DNA of 64,000 nucleotides, taken from assembly GCF_022846255.1 (NCBI RefSeq), contig NZ_AP025682.1; one strand, 5' to 3'. Below, piece after piece: positions 6,450 to 36,505 of the stretch (the stretch's first letter is position 1; each line of letters starts with the position of its first letter). Made by a program: the position numbers and the translations under genes. The notes beneath the pieces are model-generated. The model was not told where the DNA came from. It did no database searches and saw only the letters and a list, made by a program, of their open reading frames with translations. Source of the stretch: Escherichia coli. Lineage in GTDB: Bacteria > Pseudomonadota > Gammaproteobacteria > Enterobacterales > Enterobacteriaceae.

Positions 6450-6815
6450 TTAATTTAATCGTATTGTGCTGGCATTTTCATCAGCCCCTTTTCGCCATAC
6501 TTCATGCAGTTGGCTGGCATTTTCAACATTATTGCAGCTGGCAGGAAAGCTTTTACCAGAAAGTCCCCGGGCATAAGTAAAATCGGTCTGGCAAGTTTTC
6601 TTTTGCCCTTCGGCATATCCTTTAAGGTATAGACCGCGATCCGCCTGTGAATCGCTAAATGCATCGTCATCTTTAATGGCGCTGCCCGATATCGCATCTT
6701 CCATACCAACATCATACCAGTCGGTGCTGGTCAAGGTTGGCGCGTGAGTATAAGGATCAATCTGACATCCGCTAACCAGTAAAGCCAACAAGGGGGCGAT
6801 AAATTTTTTCATCAT
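6450..6815 (-). CDS. yfiL: Lipoprotein YfiL
   Basis: MMKKFIAPLLALLVSGCQ lipobox; start placed at the first ATG (6815); the track ORF extends to a TTG at 6833. Confidence 0.85.
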   Translation of the reverse strand: MMKKFIAPLLALLVSGCQIDPYTHAPTLTSTDWYDVGMEDAISGSAIKDDDAFSDSQADRGLYLKGYAEGQKKTCQTDFTYARGLSGKSFPASCNNVENASQLHEVWRKGADENASTIRLN

Positions 6816-6860
6816 TTCTTTCTCCTTTTTCAAAGCATAGCGGATTGTTTTTAAAGCTGG

Positions 6861-6930
6861 TGTAAATTTATTTATACAGAAATAAGGGGAAAAAGCGCGA
6901 ATAAATTGCTTATGTAAAGAAATATGTACG
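6861..6930 (+). promoter_or_regulatory. aroF promoter region with TyrR-box-like sequences
   Basis: TGTAAATTTATTTATACA at 6861..6878 and TGTAAAGAAATATGTACG at 6913..6930 resemble the TyrR box consensus TGTAAA-N6-TTTACA; located upstream of aroF. Confidence 0.5.
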
Positions 6931-7024
6931 AAATATGGATTGAAAACTTTACTTTATGTGTTATCGTTACGTCATCCTCGCTGAGGATCAACTATCGCAA
7001 ACGAGCATAAACAGGATCGCCATC

Positions 7025-8095
7025 ATGCAGAAAGACGCGCTGAATAACGTACATATTACCGCCGAACAGGTTTTAATGACTCCGGAACAACTGAAGGCCG
7101 CTTTTCCATTAAGCCTGCAACAAGAAGCCCAGATTGCTGACTCGCGTAAAACCATTTCAGATATTATCGCCGGGCGCGATCCTCGTCTGCTGGTAGTATG
7201 TGGTCCTTGTTCCATTCATGATCCGGAAACTGCTCTGGAATATGCTCGTCGATTTAAAGCCCTTGCCGCAGAGGTCAGCGATAGCCTCTATCTGGTAATG
7301 CGCGTCTATTTTGAAAAACCCCGTACCACTGTCGGCTGGAAAGGGTTAATTAACGATCCCCATATGGATGGCTCTTTTGATGTAGAAGCCGGGCTGCAGA
7401 TCGCGCGTAAATTGCTGCTTGAGCTGGTGAATATGGGACTGCCACTGGCGACGGAAGCGTTAGATCCGAATAGCCCGCAATACCTGGGCGATCTGTTTAG
7501 CTGGTCAGCAATTGGTGCTCGTACAACGGAATCGCAAACTCACCGTGAAATGGCCTCCGGGCTTTCCATGCCGGTTGGTTTTAAAAACGGCACCGACGGC
7601 AGTCTGGCAACGGCAATTAACGCTATGCGTGCCGCCGCCCAGCCGCACCGTTTTGTTGGCATTAACCAGGCAGGGCAGGTTGCGTTGCTACAAACTCAGG
7701 GGAATCCGGACGGGCATGTGATCCTGCGCGGTGGTAAAGCGCCAAACTATAGCCCTGCGGATGTTGCGCAATGTGAAAAAGAGATGGAACAGGCGGGACT
7801 GCGCCCGTCTCTGATGGTAGATTGCAGCCACGGTAATTCCAATAAAGATTATCGCCGTCAGCCTGCGGTGGCAGAATCCGTGGTTGCTCAAATCAAAGAT
7901 GGCAATCGCTCAATTATTGGTCTGATGATCGAAAGTAATATCCACGAGGGCAATCAGTCTTCCGAGCAACCGCGCAGTGAAATGAAATACGGTGTATCCG
8001 TAACCGATGCCTGCATTAGCTGGGAAATGACCGATGCCTTGCTGCGTGAAATTCATCAGGATCTGAACGGGCAGCTGACGGCTCGCGTGGCTTAA
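7025..8095 (+). CDS. aroF: Tyr-sensitive DAHP synthase AroF (356 aa)
   Basis: [30 protein letters not shown]...; start at ATG 7025 inside the longer track ORF. Confidence 0.95.
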
Positions 8096-8105
8096 GAGGT
8101 TTATT

Positions 8106-9227
8106 ATGGTTGCTGAATTGACCGCATTACGCGATCAAATTGATGAAGTCGATAAAGCGCTGCTGAATTTATTAGCGAAGCGTCTGGAACTGGTTGCTGA
8201 AGTGGGCGAGGTGAAAAGCCGCTTTGGACTGCCTATTTATGTTCCGGAGCGCGAGGCATCTATGTTGGCCTCGCGTCGTGCAGAGGCGGAAGCTCTGGGT
8301 GTACCGCCAGATCTGATTGAGGATGTTTTGCGTCGGGTGATGCGTGAATCTTACTCCAGTGAAAACGACAAAGGATTTAAAACGCTTTGTCCGTCACTGC
8401 GCCCGGTGGTTATCGTCGGTGGTGGCGGTCAGATGGGACGTCTGTTCGAGAAGATGCTGACACTCTCGGGTTATCAGGTGCGGATTCTGGAGCAACATGA
8501 CTGGGATCGAGCGGCTGATATTGTTTCCGATGCCGGAATGGTGATTGTTAGTGTGCCCATCCACGTTACTGAGCAAGTTATCGGCAAATTACCGCCTTTA
8601 CCGAAAGATTGTATTCTGGTTGATCTGGCATCGGTGAAAAATGGACCATTACAGGCCATGCTGGCGGCGCACGATGGCCCGGTGCTGGGGTTACACCCGA
8701 TGTTCGGCCCGGACAGCGGTAGCCTGGCAAAGCAAGTTGTGGTCTGGTGTGATGGACGTAAGCCGGAAGCATACCAATGGTTTCTGGAGCAAATTCAGGT
8801 CTGGGGCGCTCGGTTGCATCGTATTAGCGCTGTCGAGCACGATCAGAATATGGCGTTTATTCAGGCTCTGCGCCACTTTGCTACTTTTGCTTATGGGCTG
8901 CACCTGGCAGAAGAAAATGTTCAGCTTGAGCAACTACTGGCGCTCTCTTCGCCGATTTACCGCCTTGAGCTGGCGATGGTCGGGCGACTGTTTGCTCAGG
9001 ATCCGCAGCTTTATGCCGACATTATTATGTCGTCAGAGCGTAATCTGGCGTTAATCAAACGTTACTATAAGCGTTTCGGCGAGGCGATTGAGCTGCTGGA
9101 GCAGGGCGATAAGCAGGCGTTTATTGACAGTTTCCGCAAGGTGGAGCACTGGTTCGGCGATTACGCACAGCGTTTTCAGAGTGAAAGCCGCGTGTTATTG
9201 CGTCAGGCGAATGACAATCGCCAGTAA
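8106..9227 (+). CDS. tyrA: Chorismate mutase / prephenate dehydrogenase TyrA (373 aa)
   Basis: [37 protein letters not shown] chorismate-mutase N-terminus followed by GGGGQMG Rossmann motif. Confidence 0.96.
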
Positions 9228-9269: not shown

Positions 9270-10430
9270 TCAGGTTGGATCAACAGGCACTACGTTCTCA
9301 CTTGGGTAACAGCCCAATACCTTCATCGAACGGGTGATTTCCCCTAACTCTTTCAATGCTTTTTGCATTTCCGCTGATTCAAGATTGGCCTGAATATCCA
9401 GATAAAACATCTCTTCCCACGGATTACCGTGAATCGGACGTGATTCCAGACGGGTCATAATCAGACTGTGATTGCGCAGTACCAGCAACGCTTCAACCAG
9501 TGCACCAGCTTGTTGTCCGGTCGCCATTAACAACGTCGTTTTCGCCGGAACCTGGTCAGAAACGTTAATGGCTTTACGTGCCAACACCACAAATCGGGTG
9601 AAGTTTTGTCGCTGATTCGCTTCAATACGCTCCAGTACCTGCAAACCGTACAAAGTGCCGCCAGCTTCGCTTCCCAACGCAGCAACATGCGGTGATTTTG
9701 CCTGTGCAACCTTTTCCATTGCCGCAGACGTACTTTCGGTATATTCAATCTTCCAGTGCGGATAACGATTAAGGAATTTGCTGCATTGCTGGAATGGCTG
9801 CGGATGGCTGTAGACCGTATTGATGGCGGATAAATCAGTAGTGCCGGAGACCAACAAACAATGATCGATAGTTAACGTCATCTCGCCAACAATCGACAAA
9901 CTGGTATGTTGCAGCAGATCGTAAACGTCGTTTATGGCACCGGAGCTGGTATTTTCAATCGGTACGACGGCATAGTCGGCCTGGCCGGTTTCCACCTGAT
10001 TAAAAATATCGGCAAATTTGGCGCAGCCACTTTCAATGAATTGCTCAAAGTGACGAGCAGCATACTGGCGCGCCGCAAGATGGGAATAAGAACCTTTGGG
10101 GCCGAGAAAAGCGATGCGTGCTGAGTGCGGATTAATTTTATTGAGATGTTGTTGGAGCAAAGCCTGCTGAGTTAATACGGAATCTTCAATGATGAGCTGG
10201 AACAGGCGAGTAATGTAATGGGCGTCCAGATGGTGCGCTTTACCGAGCGTAATTAATCTTTCCAGCAAATCGCGTTCACGATCAATATCACGTACCGGGC
10301 GATGCGAGAGCAGTTTGGCTTTTCCCACCTCGACGGCCAGTTCGCGTCGCTCTGCCAGTAATGCTAATAATTTTTCATCCAGCGCGCTGATTTTCTCTCG
10401 CAGCGCCAGTAACGGGTTTTCCGATGTCAT
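9270..10430 (-). CDS. pheA: Chorismate mutase / prephenate dehydratase PheA (386 aa)
   Basis: [40 protein letters not shown]...; ACT domain at the C-terminus. Confidence 0.96.
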
Positions 10431-15439: not shown

Positions 15440-18013
15440 ATGCGTCTGGATCGTCTTACTAATAAATTCCAGCTTGCTCTTGCCGATGCCCAATCACTTG
15501 CACTCGGGCACGACAACCAATTCATCGAACCACTTCATTTAATGAGCGCCCTGCTGAATCAGGAAGGGGGTTCGGTTAGTCCTTTATTAACATCCGCTGG
15601 CATAAATGCTGGCCAGTTGCGCACAGATATCAATCAGGCATTAAATCGTTTACCGCAGGTTGAAGGTACTGGTGGTGATGTCCAGCCATCACAGGATCTG
15701 GTGCGCGTTCTTAATCTTTGCGACAAGCTGGCGCAAAAACGTGGTGATAACTTTATCTCGTCAGAACTGTTCGTTCTGGCGGCACTTGAGTCTCGCGGCA
15801 CGCTGGCCGACATCCTGAAAGCAGCAGGGGCGACCACCGCCAACATTACTCAAGCGATTGAACAAATGCGTGGAGGTGAAAGCGTGAACGATCAAGGTGC
15901 TGAAGACCAACGTCAGGCTTTGAAAAAATATACCATCGACCTTACCGAACGAGCCGAACAAGGCAAACTCGATCCGGTGATTGGTCGTGATGAAGAAATT
16001 CGCCGTACCATTCAGGTGCTGCAACGTCGTACTAAAAATAACCCGGTATTGATTGGTGAACCCGGCGTCGGTAAAACTGCCATCGTTGAAGGTCTGGCGC
16101 AGCGTATTATCAACGGCGAAGTGCCCGAAGGGTTGAAAGGCCGCCGCGTACTGGCGCTGGATATGGGCGCGCTGGTGGCTGGGGCGAAATATCGCGGTGA
16201 GTTTGAAGAACGTTTAAAAGGCGTACTTAACGATCTTGCTAAACAGGAAGGCAACGTCATCCTGTTTATCGACGAATTACATACCATGGTCGGCGCGGGT
16301 AAAGCCGATGGCGCAATGGACGCCGGAAACATGCTGAAACCTGCTCTGGCGCGTGGTGAATTGCACTGCGTAGGTGCCACGACGCTTGACGAATATCGCC
16401 AGTACATCGAAAAAGATGCTGCGCTGGAACGTCGTTTCCAGAAAGTGTTTGTTGCCGAGCCTTCTGTTGAAGATACCATTGCTATTCTGCGTGGCCTGAA
16501 AGAACGTTATGAGCTGCACCACCATGTGCAAATTACTGACCCGGCAATTGTTGCAGCGGCGACGTTGTCTCATCGCTACATTGCTGACCGTCAGCTGCCG
16601 GATAAAGCCATCGACCTGATCGATGAAGCAGCATCCAGCATTCGTATGCAGATTGACTCAAAACCAGAAGAACTCGACCGACTCGATCGTCGTATCATCC
16701 AGCTCAAACTGGAACAACAGGCGTTAATGAAAGAGTCTGATGAAGCCAGTAAAAAACGCCTGGATATGCTCAACGAAGAACTGAGCGACAAAGAACGTCA
16801 GTACTCCGAGTTAGAAGAAGAGTGGAAAGCAGAGAAAGCCTCGCTTTCTGGTACGCAGACCATTAAAGCGGAACTGGAACAGGCGAAAATCGCTATTGAA
16901 CAGGCTCGCCGTGTGGGTGACCTGGCGAGGATGTCTGAACTGCAATACGGCAAAATCCCGGAACTGGAAAAGCAACTGGAAGCCGCAACGCAGCTCGAAG
17001 GCAAAACTATGCGTCTGTTGCGTAATAAAGTGACCGATGCCGAAATTGCTGAAGTGCTGGCGCGTTGGACGGGAATTCCGGTTTCTCGCATGATGGAAAG
17101 CGAGCGCGAAAAACTGCTGCGTATGGAGCAAGAACTGCACCATCGCGTTATTGGTCAGAACGAAGCGGTTGATGCGGTATCTAACGCTATTCGTCGTAGC
17201 CGTGCGGGGCTGGCGGATCCAAATCGCCCGATTGGTTCATTCCTGTTTCTCGGCCCAACGGGTGTGGGGAAAACAGAGCTTTGTAAGGCGCTGGCGAACT
17301 TTATGTTTGATAGCGACGAGGCGATGGTCCGTATCGATATGTCCGAGTTTATGGAGAAACACTCGGTGTCTCGTCTGGTTGGTGCGCCTCCGGGATATGT
17401 TGGTTATGAAGAAGGTGGCTATCTGACCGAAGCGGTGCGTCGTCGTCCGTATTCCGTCATCCTGCTGGATGAAGTGGAAAAAGCGCATCCGGATGTCTTC
17501 AACATTCTGTTGCAGGTACTGGATGATGGGCGTCTGACTGACGGGCAGGGGAGAACGGTCGACTTCCGTAATACGGTCGTCATTATGACCTCTAACCTCG
17601 GTTCCGATCTGATTCAGGAACGTTTTGGTGAACTGGATTATGCGCACATGAAAGAGCTGGTGCTCGGTGTGGTAAGCCATAACTTCCGTCCGGAATTCAT
17701 TAACCGTATCGATGAAGTCGTCGTCTTCCATCCGCTGGGTGAACAACACATTGCGTCGATTGCGCAGATTCAGTTGAAACGTCTGTACAAACGTCTGGAA
17801 GAACGTGGTTATGAAATCCACATTTCTGACGAGGCGCTGAAACTGCTGAGCGAGAACGGTTACGATCCGGTCTATGGTGCACGTCCTCTGAAACGTGCTA
17901 TCCAGCAGCAGATCGAAAACCCGCTGGCACAGCAAATACTGTCTGGTGAATTGGTTCCGGGTAAAGTTATTCGCCTGGAAGTTAATGAAGACCGGATCGT
18001 CGCCGTCCAGTAA
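15440..18013 (+). CDS. clpB: Chaperone/disaggregase ClpB (857 aa); internal GTG at 15884 corresponds to the known ClpB-80 start
   Basis: [24 protein letters not shown]...; two AAA+ modules (GEPGVGKT and GPTGVGKTE Walker A motifs). Confidence 0.96.
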
Positions 18014-18020
18014 TGATAAA

Positions 18021-18045
18021 ACGAGCCTTCGGGGCTCGTTTTTGT
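18021..18045 (+). terminator. clpB rho-independent terminator
   Basis: acgagcc ttcgg ggctcgt followed by TTTTT. Confidence 0.7.
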
Positions 18046-18126
18046 CTATAAGTTAGACGGAAAAGACTATATTAAAGATGTTTTGCCTGAAAAATGAGCG
18101 AACAATAAAGTTTTTATATTTTTTGC

Positions 18127-18273
18127 TTGTCAGGCCGGAATAACTCCCTATAATGCGCCACCACTGACACGGAACAACGGCAAACACGCCGCCGGGTCAG
18201 CGGGGTTCTCCTGAGAACTTCGGCAGAGAAAGCAAAAATAAATGCTTGACTCTGTAGCGGGAAAGCGTATCAT
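18127..18273 (+). promoter_or_regulatory. rRNA operon tandem promoters P1 and P2
   Basis: P1 TTGTCA (18127..18132) with TATAAT (18149..18154); P2 TTGACT (18246..18251) with tatcat at about 18268; boxA-like gctctttaacaa at about 18313. Confidence 0.8.
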
Positions 18274-18452
18274 GCACACCCCGCGCCGCTGAGAAAAAGC
18301 GAAGCGGCACTGCTCTTTAACAATTTATCAGACAATCTGTGTGGGCACTCGAAGATACGGATTCTTGACGTCGCAAGACGAAAAATGAATACCAAGTCTC
18401 TGAGTGAACACGTAATTCATTACGAAGTTTAATTCACGAGCATCAAACTTTT

Positions 18453-19994
<1,542 letters not shown>

Positions 19995-20079
19995 CCTTAA
20001 AGAAGCGTACTTTGCAGTGCTCACACAGATTGTCTGATAGAAAGTGAAAAGCAAGGCGTCTTGCGAAGCAGACTGATAC

Positions 20080-20155
20080 GTCCCCTTCGTCTAGAGGCCC
20101 AGGACACCGCCCTTTCACGGCGGTAACAGGGGTTCGAATCCCCTAGGGGACGCCA
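20080..20155 (+). tRNA. gltW: tRNA-Glu (anticodon UUC), spacer tRNA of the rRNA operon
   Basis: gtccccttcgtctagaggcccaggacaccgccctttcacggcggtaacaggggttcgaatcccctaggggacgcca; ends in encoded CCA. Confidence 0.95.
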
Positions 20156-20387
20156 AGCGTTAACTGATGAGGTCAAACCTCCCAGGGGACGCCACTTGCT
20201 GGTTTGTGAGTGAAAGTCACCTGCCTTAATATCTCAAAACTCATCTTCGGGTGATGTTTGAGATATTTGCTCTTTAAAAATCTGGATCAAGCTGAAAATT
20301 GAAACACTGAACAACGAGAGTTGTTCGTGAGTCTCTCAAATTTTCGCAACACGATGATGAATCGCAAGAAACATCTTCGGGTTGTGA

Positions 20388-23291
<2,904 letters not shown>

Positions 23292-23389
23292 ACAACGCCG
23301 AAGATGTTTTGGCGGATAGAGAGAAGATTTTCAGCCTGATACAGATTAAATCGACAGGTCATAACGAGACGTGTTGATAAAACAGAATT

Positions 23390-23509
23390 TGCCTGGCGGC
23401 CGTAGCGCGGTGGTCCCACCTGACCCCATGCCGAACTCAGAAGTGAAACGCCGTAGCGCCGATGGTAGTGTGGGGTCTCCCCATGCGAGAGTAGGGAACT
23501 GCCAGGCAT
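23390..23509 (+). rRNA. rrfG: 5S ribosomal RNA (120 nt)
   Basis: tgcctggcggccgtagcgcggtggtcccacctgaccccatgccgaactcag...gggaactgccaggcat. Confidence 0.96.
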
Positions 23510-23521
23510 CAAATTAAGCAG

Positions 23522-23548
23522 AAGGCCATCCGTCAGGATGGCCTTTTT
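23522..23548 (+). terminator. rRNA operon terminator
   Basis: ggccatcc gtca ggatggcc followed by TTTTT. Confidence 0.8.
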
Positions 23549-23831
23549 GCGCTGGTGCAGAAAAAAATGCCTAATGCGATGCTGCGCGTCTTATACTCCC
23601 ACATATGCCAGATTCAGCAACGGATACGGTTTCCCCAACTTGCCTACTTCCATACGTGTCCTCCTTACCAGAAATTTATCCTTAAGCTCCTCAATAACCA
23701 TTTTCCTGCTAACTAAATTCATGGTTAAGGTTGCATAACGATACGCAACAAATGTATAGCATTTTCTTTACCAAAAAAATAAACAACAGCGACCGACAAA
23801 AGCATCGGATTACGGCAGGAGACATAATGGC

Positions 23832-25130
23832 ATGGCTGAAAGTACTGTAACGGCAGACAGCAAACTGACAAGTAGTGATACTCGTCGCCGCATTTGGGCA
23901 ATTGTGGGGGCCTCTTCAGGTAATTTGGTCGAGTGGTTCGATTTCTATGTCTACTCGTTCTGTTCACTCTACTTCGCCCACATCTTCTTCCCTTCCGGGA
24001 ACACGACGACTCAACTACTGCAAACAGCAGGTGTTTTTGCTGCGGGATTTCTGATGCGCCCAATAGGCGGTTGGCTATTTGGTCGCATAGCCGATAAACA
24101 TGGTCGCAAAAAATCGATGCTATTATCGGTGTGTATGATGTGTTTCGGCTCACTGGTTATCGCCTGTTTGCCAGGCTACGAAACAATCGGTACCTGGGCT
24201 CCGGCATTATTGCTTCTCGCTCGTTTATTCCAGGGATTATCCGTTGGCGGAGAATATGGCACCAGCGCCACCTATATGAGTGAAGTTGCCGTTGAAGGGC
24301 GCAAAGGTTTTTACGCATCATTTCAGTATGTGACGTTGATCGGCGGGCAACTGCTAGCCCTACTGGTTGTCGTGGTTTTACAACATACCATGGAAGACGC
24401 AGCACTCAGAGAGTGGGGATGGCGTATTCCTTTCGCGTTAGGAGCTGTGTTAGCTGTTGTGGCGTTGTGGTTACGTCGTCAGTTAGATGAAACTTCGCAA
24501 CAAGAAACGCGCGCTTTAAAAGAAGCTGGATCTCTGAAAGGATTATGGCGCAATCGCCGTGCATTCATCATGGTTCTCGGTTTTACCGCTGCGGGCTCCC
24601 TTTGTTTCTATACCTTCACCACTTATATGCAGAAGTATCTGGTAAATACTGCGGGAATGCATGCCAACGTGGCGAGTGGCATTATGACTGCCGCATTGTT
24701 TGTATTCATGCTTATTCAACCACTTATTGGCGCGCTGTCGGATAAGATTGGTCGCCGTACCTCAATGTTATGTTTCGGTTCTCTGGCAACCATTTTTACC
24801 GTTCCTATTCTCTCAGCATTGCAGAACGTTTCCTCGCCTTATGCCGCTTTTGGTCTGGTGATGTGCGCCCTGCTGATAGTGAGTTTTTATACTTCAATCA
24901 GTGGAATACTGAAGGCTGAGATGTTCCCGGCACAGGTTCGCGCATTAGGCGTTGGTCTGTCATATGCGGTCGCCAATGCTATATTTGGTGGGTCGGCGGA
25001 GTACGTAGCGTTGTCGCTGAAATCAATAGGAATGGAAACAGCCTTCTTCTGGTATGTGACCTTGATGGCCGTGGTGGCGTTTCTGGTTTCACTAACATTG
25101 CACCGTAAAGGAAAAGGGATGCGGCTTTAG
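23832..25130 (+). CDS. kgtP: Alpha-ketoglutarate permease KgtP (MFS transporter, 432 aa)
   Basis: [41 protein letters not shown]; 12-TM MFS profile. Confidence 0.95.
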
Positions 25131-25450
25131 TGACGGGTCAGTTGCCAGACGGTATAGCCGGTGCTTGCACCGGCGATATCCCAGGCAAAATCCTTCCAGC
25201 TCCAGCCGCTCCCCTCAGGGCGGCTATCCCAAAGCTCTTTTGACGCCCCCAGACTGACAGAGAACATCAATCCAAACATGGCACTGCGATCCCGGCTCAT
25301 CCCCTGATGCTGTGAATATTCATTTCCGGCGGCGGAAAGCATCGCCGAGGCGATAAAGTGTTGAGCTTTATCCTGCCCGCTCCAGCTATCGTTAGCCATA
25401 TGGCTGCATCCAGAAAGTAACAATAGCGAACAGACAAAAAGAATACGCAA
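25127..25450 (-). CDS. yfiM: Lipoprotein YfiM (start uncertain: TTG at 25450 with strong GGAGG RBS, or the track start at 25471)
   Basis: [23 protein letters not shown] lipobox; synteny between kgtP and pssA. Confidence 0.8.
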
Positions 25451-35170: not shown

Positions 35171-36505
35171 TTACTCTTCTGTCGTTTGCGGTGGCACGCC
35201 CGTTCCGCTCGGTTTACGGCGCTTACCAATATTTTTGGTGTCGCGATGGCGTTTTTTCACCCGCGGCTTATCTTTCTCTTTAGCTTTTTTCTTCTCGGCG
35301 CGTTTAGCCAGTACTTTCTTCGATGGCTTGCCGGTCTGCTTCTCGCTTGGCGCACGCGTTTTCGGGCGTAACTCATCAATTACACGAGCTTTAATTGGCT
35401 CTTCAATATAGCGACCAACTTTGCCCAGCAGCAGATGGTCATGGGCTTCTACCAGCGAAATTGCGGTGCCTTTACGACCGGCGCGCGCGGTACGTCCGAT
35501 ACGGTGCAAATAAGTATCGCCACTGCGCGGCATATCGAAGTTAAAGACGTGGCTGACGTCAGGAATGTCGATACCGCGCGCGGCAACATCGGTTGCAACC
35601 AGTACGTTTACGCGACCTTCGGTCAAACGCTTGATCGCTTCGTTACGCTTGCCCTGTACCATCTCACCTTCGAGATAGCAGTTGTTGATGCCCGCTTCGC
35701 GCAGCCAGTTTGCCAGCTCATGCACACGCTCACGCTTACGCACAAACACAATTGAGCGGGTCGCTTCCGGCTGTTTTAACAGGTGCACCAGCAATGCGGT
35801 TTTATGTTCCAGGTCATCGGCGCGGTAATACCACTGATGAATTTTTTTGCGCTCACGGGTGGACGGATTGGCAGAAACCTCCACCGGATCTTCCAGCAGA
35901 CGCTCGGCAAAGTCCTGAATCGCATCGCCTTCCAGCGTTGCCGAAAAGAGCAGGGTCTGTTTACGCCAGCGCGTTTCGCCAGCAATATGTTCGATATCCT
36001 GAGCGAAGCCCATATCCAGCATACGGTCTGCTTCGTCGAGGATCAGCGTTTCAACCGCGCGGCAATCGAAGTTCTCTTCTTTTATGTATTGCAGCAGACG
36101 TCCGGTCGTGGCGACCACAATGTCCTGGTTTTCGCTGAACACTTCTGCGTGGTTCATATAGGCCACGCCGCCGGTGATGGTGGCGATATCCAGATGCGTA
36201 TGTTTCGCCAGTTCGCGGGCATGATCGGCCACCTGCATCGCCAGCTCGCGAGTTGGGGTGAGGATCAAAATACGCGGCGGACCGGATTTCTTACGTGGGA
36301 AATCGAGCAGGTGCTGCAACGCTGGCAGCAGATACGCCGCCGTTTTACCGGTGCCTGTCGGCGCAGAACCGAGTACATCACGGCCATCGAGCGCAGGCGG
36401 AATGGCGGCAGCCTGAATGGCGGTCGGGCGAGTGAAACCTTTATCCTGGAGGGCTTCCAGCAGGCTTTCGTCGAGTTCAAGTTCGGAAAAAGTCGTTACA
36501 GTCAT
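35171..36505 (-). CDS. srmB: DEAD-box RNA helicase SrmB (444 aa)
   Basis: Q motif, GTGKT Walker A, DEAD box ([14 protein letters not shown]), HRIGRTAR motif. Confidence 0.96.

What the first reader, a model, noticed from the sequence alone, without database searches (positions are those of the whole stretch)
6861..6930. TyrR-box-like sequences upstream of aroF
Two sites close to the TGTAAA-N6-TTTACA consensus lie upstream of aroF, consistent with TyrR-mediated tyrosine repression of the aroF-tyrA operon.
Basis: partly seen in the sequence, partly recalled or inferred. Interest (0 to 1): 0.15.

Follow-up and report, generated by a model that had tools for sequence, protein, structure and literature searches.

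The report
Known TyrR operator of E. coli aroF
The two sequences are the well-known binding sites through which the tyrosine-sensing repressor TyrR shuts off the E. coli aroF-tyrA tyrosine-synthesis operon, so the finding is correct but ordinary.

Summary
The window is E. coli chromosome, and 6861-6930 runs from the first base of one TyrR-box-like 18-mer to the last base of a second. The first is 6861-6878, TGTAAATTTATTTATACA (11/12 to consensus). The second is 6913-6930, TGTAAAGAAATATGTACG (10/12). Both lie in the 209-bp yfiL/aroF intergenic region. Two such sites occur there in 0.05% of composition-matched shuffles. A weight matrix built only from other K-12 TyrR-regulon promoters ranks them 1st and 2nd of 63,983 window positions. 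They align base for base with the K-12 aroF upstream region: all 24 half-site bases are identical, although the surrounding 120 bp differ at 15 positions.

The three-box layout is kept in 24 of 24 Enterobacteriaceae species examined. Box 2 to box 1 is always 23 bp; box 3 to box 2 is 51-53 or 61-63 bp.

This matches the textbook mechanism: a tyrosine- and ATP-induced TyrR hexamer occupies all three boxes and blocks RNA polymerase. The finding is already known and of low interest. I could not read the primary operator-mapping papers in the held library, so the box names rest on my recollection.

The parts
6861..6878 (.). Distal strong TyrR box ('box 3' of aroF): TGTAAATTTATTTATACA, 11/12 to consensus, G2/C17 present
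   Evidence: PWM rank 1 of 63,983. Aligns to K-12 TGTAAATTTATCTATACA, differing only in the N6 spacer. A box lies 51-53 or 61-63 bp upstream of box 2 in 24 of 24 Enterobacteriaceae species.
6913..6930 (.). Proximal strong TyrR box ('box 2'): TGTAAAGAAATATGTACG, 10/12 to consensus, G2/C17 present
   Evidence: PWM rank 2. Aligns to K-12 TGTAAATAAAAATGTACG, with two spacer differences only. Arm identity to the window base is 0.96 and 0.87 across 24 species, against 0.45 for the inter-box DNA.
6936..6953 (.).
   Evidence: 4 mismatches, G2/C17. PWM rank 6. Identical in K-12. It starts exactly 23 bp after box 2 in 24 of 24 species. Arm identity 0.99 and 0.93. The same 23-bp strong/weak pairing is seen in K-12 aroP, aroL and tyrP.
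6940..6967 (+). aroF sigma-70 promoter: -35 TTGAAA (6940-6945), 16-bp spacer, -10 TATCGT (6962-6967) preceded by TG. The transcription start is inferred near 6974.
   Evidence: It is the only promoter-like site in the intergenic region. Identity across 24 species is 0.95 for the -35 and 0.80 for the -10. The start site is inferred, not measured here.
6879..6912 (.). Inter-box DNA between box 3 and box 2: poorly conserved in sequence but constrained in length (box starts 52 bp apart, about five helical turns)
   Evidence: Identity 0.45 across species. Eight of the 15 differences from K-12 fall here. The spacing distribution is 51-53 or 61-63 only.
7025..9227 (+). Regulated operon: aroF (7025-8095, Tyr-sensitive DAHP synthase) and tyrA (8106-9227, chorismate mutase/prephenate dehydrogenase)
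   Evidence: Annotation of the identical strain D8 and of K-12. ORFs.

Best explanation
The two sequences are the two strong TyrR boxes (boxes 3 and 2) of the classical operator of the E. coli aroF-tyrA operon. Together with an adjacent weak box (box 1, 6936-6953) that overlaps the -35 hexamer, they form a three-site operator. TyrR dimers occupy the strong boxes. When tyrosine and ATP are abundant, TyrR becomes a hexamer that also fills the weak box. The roughly five helical turns of DNA between boxes 3 and 2 would be bent so that all three sites face one protein complex. Occupation of box 1 keeps RNA polymerase off the promoter, so synthesis of the tyrosine-sensitive DAHP synthase and of chorismate mutase/prephenate dehydrogenase is shut down.

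Shown here: the sites, their statistical and evolutionary support, their geometry, and the overlap with the promoter. Inferred from published work on K-12: binding, hexamer formation and promoter occlusion.
For: Sequence: 11/12 and 10/12 matches with the G-N14-C pair, which meets the strong-box definition in PMC4374768.

Chance: p of about 0.0005 for two sites in the intergenic region, and 1 of 300 window shuffles gave such a pair.

Independent PWM from other regulon promoters: ranks 1, 2 and 6 of 63,983.

Orthology: the window is E. coli. The segment is present once in 5425 of 5426 complete genomes, always between yfiL and aroF in the 15 records listed. All 36 half-site bases are identical to K-12 while the 120 bp upstream part differs at 15 positions, none of them in half-sites (hypergeometric p = 0.028 for boxes 3 and 2).

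Architecture: box 1 overlaps the only promoter-like site. The 23-bp strong/weak pairing recurs in K-12 aroP, aroL and tyrP, and aroL repeats the 53 + 23 layout.

Phylogenetic footprint: in 24 Enterobacteriaceae species the box arms score 0.74-0.99 identity against 0.43-0.45 for flanking and inter-box DNA. The box 2 to box 1 distance is 23 bp in 24 of 24. The box 3 to box 2 distance is 51-53 bp in 20 species or 61-63 bp in 4, that is, whole helical turns. TyrR-like boxes also precede aroF in Yersiniaceae, Morganellaceae, Erwiniaceae and Vibrionaceae, in other layouts.

Literature: the aroF promoter is regulated by TyrR with tyrosine as corepressor (PMC11878033). Tyrosine-mediated repression of aroF-tyrA occurs through a TyrR hexamer that inhibits polymerase access (PMC10170061). 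TyrR is proposed to bind as dimers to three boxes, forming a repressing hexamer (PMC2831303). aroF is derepressed 39.5-fold in a Yersinia pestis tyrR mutant (PMC4325908).
Against: Nothing in the data contradicts it. The limits are these. No binding or expression data exist for this strain. tyrR itself lies outside the window. The primary operator-mapping papers (Garner & Herrmann 1985; Cobbett & Delbridge 1987; Cobbett 1988; Andrews et al. 1991; Pittard et al. 2005) could not be read here, so the numbering and experimental status of the K-12 boxes rest on my recollection. The window-wide count of consensus-like sites is not by itself above chance. The two spacer substitutions in box 2 and one in box 3 relative to K-12 could change affinity slightly.
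Confidence: 0.95

Rival explanations
1. The two matches are chance products of an AT-rich intergenic region and have no regulatory role.
For: The window as a whole holds as many sites with at most 2 mismatches as its shuffles do: 3 against 2.8. The intergenic region is only 34% G+C.
Against: Two sites in this region occur in 0.05% of composition-matched shuffles. They rank 1st and 2nd in an independent PWM scan. Half-sites and spacing are conserved across 24 species while neighbouring bases are not. They lie in front of a gene documented as TyrR-repressed.
Confidence: 0.01
2. The distal box (6861-6878) serves mainly, or additionally, the divergent gene yfiL, whose start codon is 46 bp away. 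TyrR bound there would control a yfiL promoter rather than, or as well as, aroF.
For: Box 3 lies between yfiL's conserved leader (6833-6842 block) and aroF. Its reverse complement contains TATAAA, a possible -10 (read directly from the sequence). A genomic SELEX peak for RNA polymerase holoenzyme with a minor sigma factor (in the paper's section on heat-shock promoters) was reported in the aroF/yfiL spacer of K-12 (PMC5493296).
Against: The consensus scan finds no promoter-like site on the minus strand. The distal box keeps a helical-turn-quantised distance to box 2, as expected if it works with the aroF boxes. No paper retrieved links yfiL to TyrR. From my recollection of Cobbett 1988, the upstream box is needed for full aroF repression.
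Confidence: 0.1
3. The sites are bound by a different regulator of aromatic amino-acid genes, for example TrpR, which is predicted to control aroF-tyrA in Shewanellaceae, rather than by TyrR.
For: Regulator swapping for aroF-tyrA between TyrR and TrpR has been inferred in other gammaproteobacteria (PMC5343134).
Against: The same paper places aroF-tyrA in the TyrR regulon of Enterobacteriales. The sequences match the TyrR consensus and a PWM built from TyrR-regulon promoters. I did not scan the region for a TrpR operator.
Confidence: 0.01

Closest known systems
E. coli K-12 aroF-tyrA operator (TyrR boxes 1, 2 and 3)
   Same: It is the same locus (yfiL-aroF-tyrA-pheA synteny) with the same three boxes at the same positions relative to the promoter and start codon. 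All 36 half-site bases are identical, and the core promoter and leader are 100% identical over 6936-7024.
   Different: Three substitutions fall in the N6 spacers: one in box 3 (C to T) and two in box 2 (T to G, A to T). Twelve more fall in non-box DNA upstream, so this upstream part is 12.5% diverged from K-12. No functional difference is predicted.
E. coli K-12 aroL (aroLM) TyrR operator
   Same: It has the same three-box layout: a distal strong box 53 bp upstream of a pair of boxes whose starts are 23 bp apart. It is also tyrosine-repressed through a TyrR hexamer (PMC10170061).
   Different: It is a different gene. aroL is additionally controlled by TrpR (PMC5343134). In aroL the box nearest the gene is the better match (2 mismatches) and the middle one is weak, the reverse of aroF.
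tyrP and aroP strong/weak TyrR box pairs
   Same: Adjacent strong and weak boxes with starts 23 bp apart. The weak box depends on its strong neighbour (PMC4374768).
   Different: They have two boxes only, with no distal third box. tyrP is also activated by TyrR with phenylalanine, and the aroP boxes lie downstream of its main promoter (PMC4374768).

Membership tests
TyrR box (operator site of the TyrR regulon) | 18-bp palindrome TGTAAA-N6-TTTACA; at least 10 of 12 matches makes a strong box, fewer a weak box (PMC4374768) | tested here: met
   6861-6878 scores 11/12 and 6913-6930 scores 10/12, so both are strong. 6936-6953 scores 8/12, so it is weak.
TyrR box (operator site of the TyrR regulon) | Invariant G and C, 14 bp apart (positions 2 and 17), essential for binding (PMC4374768) | tested here: met
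   Present in all three boxes of the window, in all six E. coli sequences and the E. albertii sequence aligned, and in all boxes tabulated for 24 species (the scan required it).
TyrR box (operator site of the TyrR regulon) | Scores as a site under a model built from other, independent regulon members | tested here: met
   A PWM from aroP, aroL, aroG, tyrR, tyrP and mtr sites of K-12 gives ranks 1, 2 and 6 of 63,983 window positions. The training sites were themselves picked by consensus match in known regulon promoters, so the test is only partly independent.
TyrR box (operator site of the TyrR regulon) | A weak box needs an adjacent strong box | tested here: met
   Weak box 1 starts 23 bp after strong box 2. 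The same 23-bp offset occurs in K-12 aroP, aroL and tyrP and in 24 of 24 Enterobacteriaceae aroF promoters.
aroF-tyrA operator of E. coli | Lies in the promoter of aroF-tyrA, with one box overlapping the -35 region | tested here: met
   aroF and tyrA are identified by annotation of identical and K-12 genomes. Box 1 (6936-6953) covers -35 TTGAAA at 6940-6945.
aroF-tyrA operator of E. coli | Positional identity with the experimentally mapped K-12 boxes (operator-constitutive mutations, footprints) | tested here: inconclusive
   Alignment to K-12 is exact, with half-sites identical. The papers that map the boxes are not in the held library. That the aligned K-12 18-mers are the mapped boxes is my recollection of Pittard & Davidson 1991 and Pittard et al. 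2005.
aroF-tyrA operator of E. coli | Conservation in orthologous promoters | tested here: met
   Three-box layout in 24 of 24 Enterobacteriaceae species, with arm identity 0.74-0.99 against 0.43-0.45 for background.
aroF-tyrA operator of E. coli | TyrR binds and represses in response to tyrosine in this organism; tyrR is present in the genome | not testable with these tools
   tyrR is not within the 64-kb window. It is annotated in K-12. Binding and repression need experiments.

The most novel reading that the evidence does not exclude
The most novel reading not excluded is that the distal box does double duty. Besides completing the aroF operator, TyrR bound at 6861-6878 would also control the divergent, uncharacterised lipoprotein gene yfiL, 46 bp away, adding a new member to the TyrR regulon. 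A related minor point is that the distal-box distance is quantised in whole helical turns (51-53 or 61-63 bp) across Enterobacteriaceae. This is comparative support for face-of-helix looping by the hexamer.
Probability: 0.12. Interest if true: 0.25.

Novelty: already known. Interest (0 to 1): 0.06.

Why it matters
It matters little beyond correct annotation. The aroF-tyrA operator is a textbook example of repression by a ligand-induced TyrR hexamer, and it is routinely removed or exploited in metabolic engineering of aromatic amino-acid producers. Confirming it shows that the first-stage reader recognises real operators from sequence alone. The comparative data give a clean phylogenetic footprint: invariant 23-bp pairing, and a distal spacing restricted to whole helical turns. 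That footprint is consistent with the published looping and hexamer model.

Tried and rejected
1. Primary literature. I searched the held library for the K-12 box sequences and for phrases on aroF TyrR boxes. I also tried to open Pittard 2005, Andrews 1991, Yang 2007 and Cobbett & Delbridge 1987 by id. None is held, so no direct check against published footprints was possible. Several engineering reviews that were retrieved said nothing on box positions.

2. Raw consensus counting over the window is uninformative: 25 against 27 expected at 3 mismatches, and 3 against 2.8 at 2 mismatches. Clustering and PWM tests were needed.

3. The tyrB upstream region of K-12 gave no good consensus match under my filter, so it was left out of the PWM.

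4. I looked for a structured RNA element in the highly conserved aroF leader. The fold is no better than shuffles (z = 0.97) apart from a 5'-terminal 6-bp hairpin, so I did not pursue it.

5. I looked for a yfiL promoter on the minus strand. The consensus scan finds none.

6. The other high PWM hits in the window (25311, 35367) lie inside the kgtP and eamB coding sequences and are taken as chance.

Full report
**What is there.** The window is Escherichia coli chromosome. Segment 6700-7100 occurs once in 5425 of 5426 complete E. coli genomes. It lies between yfiL and aroF in every one of the 15 records listed and is 100% identical to strain D8. Transferring the D8 annotation gives, in window coordinates, yfiL 6450-6815 (-), aroF 7025-8095 (+), tyrA 8106-9227 (+) and pheA 9270-10430 (-). 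The order is the same as in K-12. The finding therefore lies in the 209-bp divergent yfiL/aroF intergenic region (6816-7024, 34% G+C).

**Check of the observation.** The first is 6861-6878, TGTAAATTTATTTATACA, with 1 mismatch to TGTAAA-N6-TTTACA. The second is 6913-6930, TGTAAAGAAATATGTACG, with 2 mismatches. Counting consensus-like sites over the whole window is uninformative: 3 sites with at most 2 mismatches against 2.8 expected. The clustering is not chance. A pair 18-100 bp apart arose in 1 of 300 dinucleotide-preserving shuffles of the window, and two non-overlapping sites arose in 0.05% of 20,000 shuffles of the intergenic region itself.

I took the best G2/C17 consensus matches from the K-12 promoters of aroP, aroL, aroG, tyrR, tyrP and mtr (loci; sites), built a symmetrised matrix and scanned the window. 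The two sites rank 1st and 2nd of 63,983 positions. The next hits (35367, 25311) lie inside the eamB and kgtP coding sequences.

**A third box.** Five bases downstream of the second site lies 6936-6953, TGGATTGAAAACTTTACT. It matches 8 of 12 consensus bases, keeps the G at position 2 and the C at position 17, and ranks 6th in the PWM scan. It overlaps the -35 hexamer of the only sigma-70-like promoter in the region: TTGAAA 6940-6945, a 16-bp spacer, and TATCGT 6962-6967 preceded by TG. By the published definition, boxes with at least 10 of 12 matches are strong and those with fewer are weak. The G and C 14 bp apart are essential, and weak boxes need an adjacent strong box (PMC4374768). So the region holds two strong boxes and one weak box. 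Start-to-start distances are 52 bp (distal to middle) and 23 bp (middle to weak).

**Comparison with K-12.** The intergenic regions align without gaps. Positions 6936-7024 (weak box, promoter, leader) are 100% identical. The upstream 120 bp differ at 15 positions (12.5%), against 0.7-2.2% in the flanking genes. None of the 15 differences falls in a half-site. Three are in N6 spacers (6872, 6919, 6923) and twelve are in non-box DNA. The hypergeometric probability of no difference in the 24 half-site positions of the two strong boxes is 0.028. Five further E. coli sequences and one from E. albertii show the same pattern of variable inter-box DNA, a kept G2/C17, and only occasional single half-site changes.

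The aligned K-12 18-mers are TGTAAATTTATCTATACA, TGTAAATAAAAATGTACG and TGGATTGAAAACTTTACT. As I recall them from Pittard & Davidson 1991 and Pittard et al. 2005, these are boxes 3, 2 and 1 of the aroF operator. I could not verify this against those texts because they are not in the held library.

**Architecture within the regulon.** The same scan of K-12 promoters shows strong/weak pairs with starts 23 bp apart in aroP, aroL and tyrP. aroL repeats the 53 + 23 three-box layout. The aroF geometry is therefore the regulon's standard repression geometry.

**Comparative evidence.** One scan of the species-representative genome collection, using a degenerate pattern for the AroF peptide VCGPCSIHD, returned 120 loci. 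tblastn against the window's AroF and TyrA, together with a requirement for enough upstream sequence, left 97 aroF upstream regions. Among the 24 species whose AroF is at least 84% identical to the window's, the results were as follows.
- Genera included Citrobacter, Enterobacter, Lelliottia, Leclercia, Kluyvera, Cedecea, Pluralibacter, Siccibacter, Mangrovibacter, Phytobacter, Superficieibacter, Pseudescherichia and E. albertii.
- All 24 have the three boxes.
- The middle-to-weak distance is 23 bp in 24 of 24.
- The distal-to-middle distance is 51-53 bp in 20 species and 61-63 bp in 4, with nothing in between. That corresponds to five or six helical turns.

In a MAFFT alignment of these species, identity to the window base is 0.74-0.99 in the six half-sites. 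It is 0.57-0.78 in the spacers, 0.45 between boxes 3 and 2, and 0.43 upstream of box 3.

Outside the Enterobacteriaceae, TyrR-like boxes still precede aroF, but in other layouts:
- Yersinia, Serratia and Pectobacterium have a pair 22-23 bp apart.
- Photorhabdus, Proteus and Xenorhabdus have a strong box 42 bp upstream of the weak one.
- Erwinia and Pantoea have a distal box about 104-108 bp upstream.
- Vibrio has a pair plus a third box about 28 bp before the start codon.

This agrees with the comparative study that lists aroF-tyrA among the most conserved TyrR regulon members (PMC5343134).

**Mechanism.** Published work states the following.
- The aroF promoter is regulated by TyrR with tyrosine as corepressor (PMC11878033).
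- TyrR goes from dimer to hexamer with tyrosine, and tyrosine repression of aroLM and aroF-tyrA occurs because the hexamer blocks polymerase access (PMC10170061; PMC4374768).
- TyrR is proposed to bind as dimers to three boxes to form the repressing hexamer (PMC2831303).
- In Yersinia pestis, deleting tyrR raises aroF 39.5-fold (PMC4325908).

The anatomy found here fits that model: two high-affinity nucleation sites, a weak site over the -35 that needs cooperative help, an invariant 23-bp offset, and a distal spacing restricted to whole helical turns. The sites, geometry and conservation are shown here. Binding, hexamerisation and occlusion are inferred from the literature on K-12.

**Rivals.** Chance is excluded by the statistics and the footprint. 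A different regulator such as TrpR, which is predicted for aroF-tyrA in Shewanella, has no support in Enterobacteriales. The one reading left open is that the distal box also affects the divergent yfiL gene. Its start codon is 46 bp away, and the reverse complement of the box contains TATAAA. However, no minus-strand promoter is detected, and no retrieved paper links yfiL to TyrR.

**Verdict.** This is a known, textbook operator in a slightly divergent E. coli haplotype. It is not novel and its interest is low.

Noticed in passing
window 6816-6935: The upstream part of the yfiL/aroF intergenic region is 12.5% diverged from K-12 (15 of 120 positions). Flanking genes differ by 0.7-2.2% and the adjacent 6936-7024 is identical. 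Other E. coli strains carry further haplotypes of this patch. Only 424 of 5425 genomes are at least 99% identical to the window over 6700-7100. This could be a local hotspot of polymorphism or an old recombinant segment.
   Followed up: partly
window 6974-7024 (aroF leader), especially 6990-7008 AACTATCGCAAACGAGCAT and 6974-6988 ATCCTC-GCT-GAGGAT: The aroF 5' leader is almost invariant across 24 Enterobacteriaceae species, as conserved as the coding sequence. It has a perfect 6-bp hairpin at the inferred 5' end. The overall fold is no better than shuffles. The reason for the conservation is unexplained; it might be an sRNA or protein target, or a translation signal.
   Followed up: partly
loci L016-L127 (24 Enterobacteriaceae aroF promoters), aligned to window 6861-6953: The distal-box spacing takes only the values 51-53 bp (20 species) or 61-63 bp (4 species: Siccibacter colletis, Enterobacter sp. 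R1(2018), Mangrovibacter yixingensis and an Enterobacteriaceae MAG). That is a one-helical-turn jump. The box 2 to box 1 distance is 23 bp in all 24.
   Followed up: yes
L129 (E. coli ESDR8), aligned to window about 6856-6860: A run of G just upstream of box 3 is 7 bases longer in this strain, about 12 G in the alignment. It lengthens the yfiL-side flank without touching the boxes. It may be a slippage-prone tract or an assembly artefact.
   Followed up: no
window 6816-7024 (aroF/yfiL spacer): A genomic SELEX study lists a peak for RNA polymerase holoenzyme with a minor sigma factor, in its section on heat-shock promoters, in the K-12 aroF/yfiL spacer (PMC5493296). Box 3 lies 46 bp from the yfiL start codon, and its reverse complement contains TATAAA. 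The yfiL promoter is not identified.
   Followed up: partly
window 25311-25328 and 35367-35384: These are the next-best TyrR PWM hits: TGTGAATATTCATTTCCG inside kgtP and CGTAACTCATCAATTACA inside eamB. Both are within coding sequence and are probably chance.
   Followed up: partly
L087 (GTDB representative labelled E. coli SCPM-O-B-8794): Its AroF is 99.3% identical to the window's over the 297 residues aligned. Its aroF upstream region is much more diverged than those of the other E. coli strains (different inter-box DNA, 53-bp distal spacing, box 2 TGTAAATTATTATTTACG), although all three boxes are kept. It may be a cryptic Escherichia lineage or a recombinant promoter.
   Followed up: no
window 22240-24792 (from D8 annotation): Two frameshifted transposase pseudogenes (IS3-like IS1397 family and IS110 family) lie just downstream of the rRNA operon at 17015-22109.
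   Followed up: no
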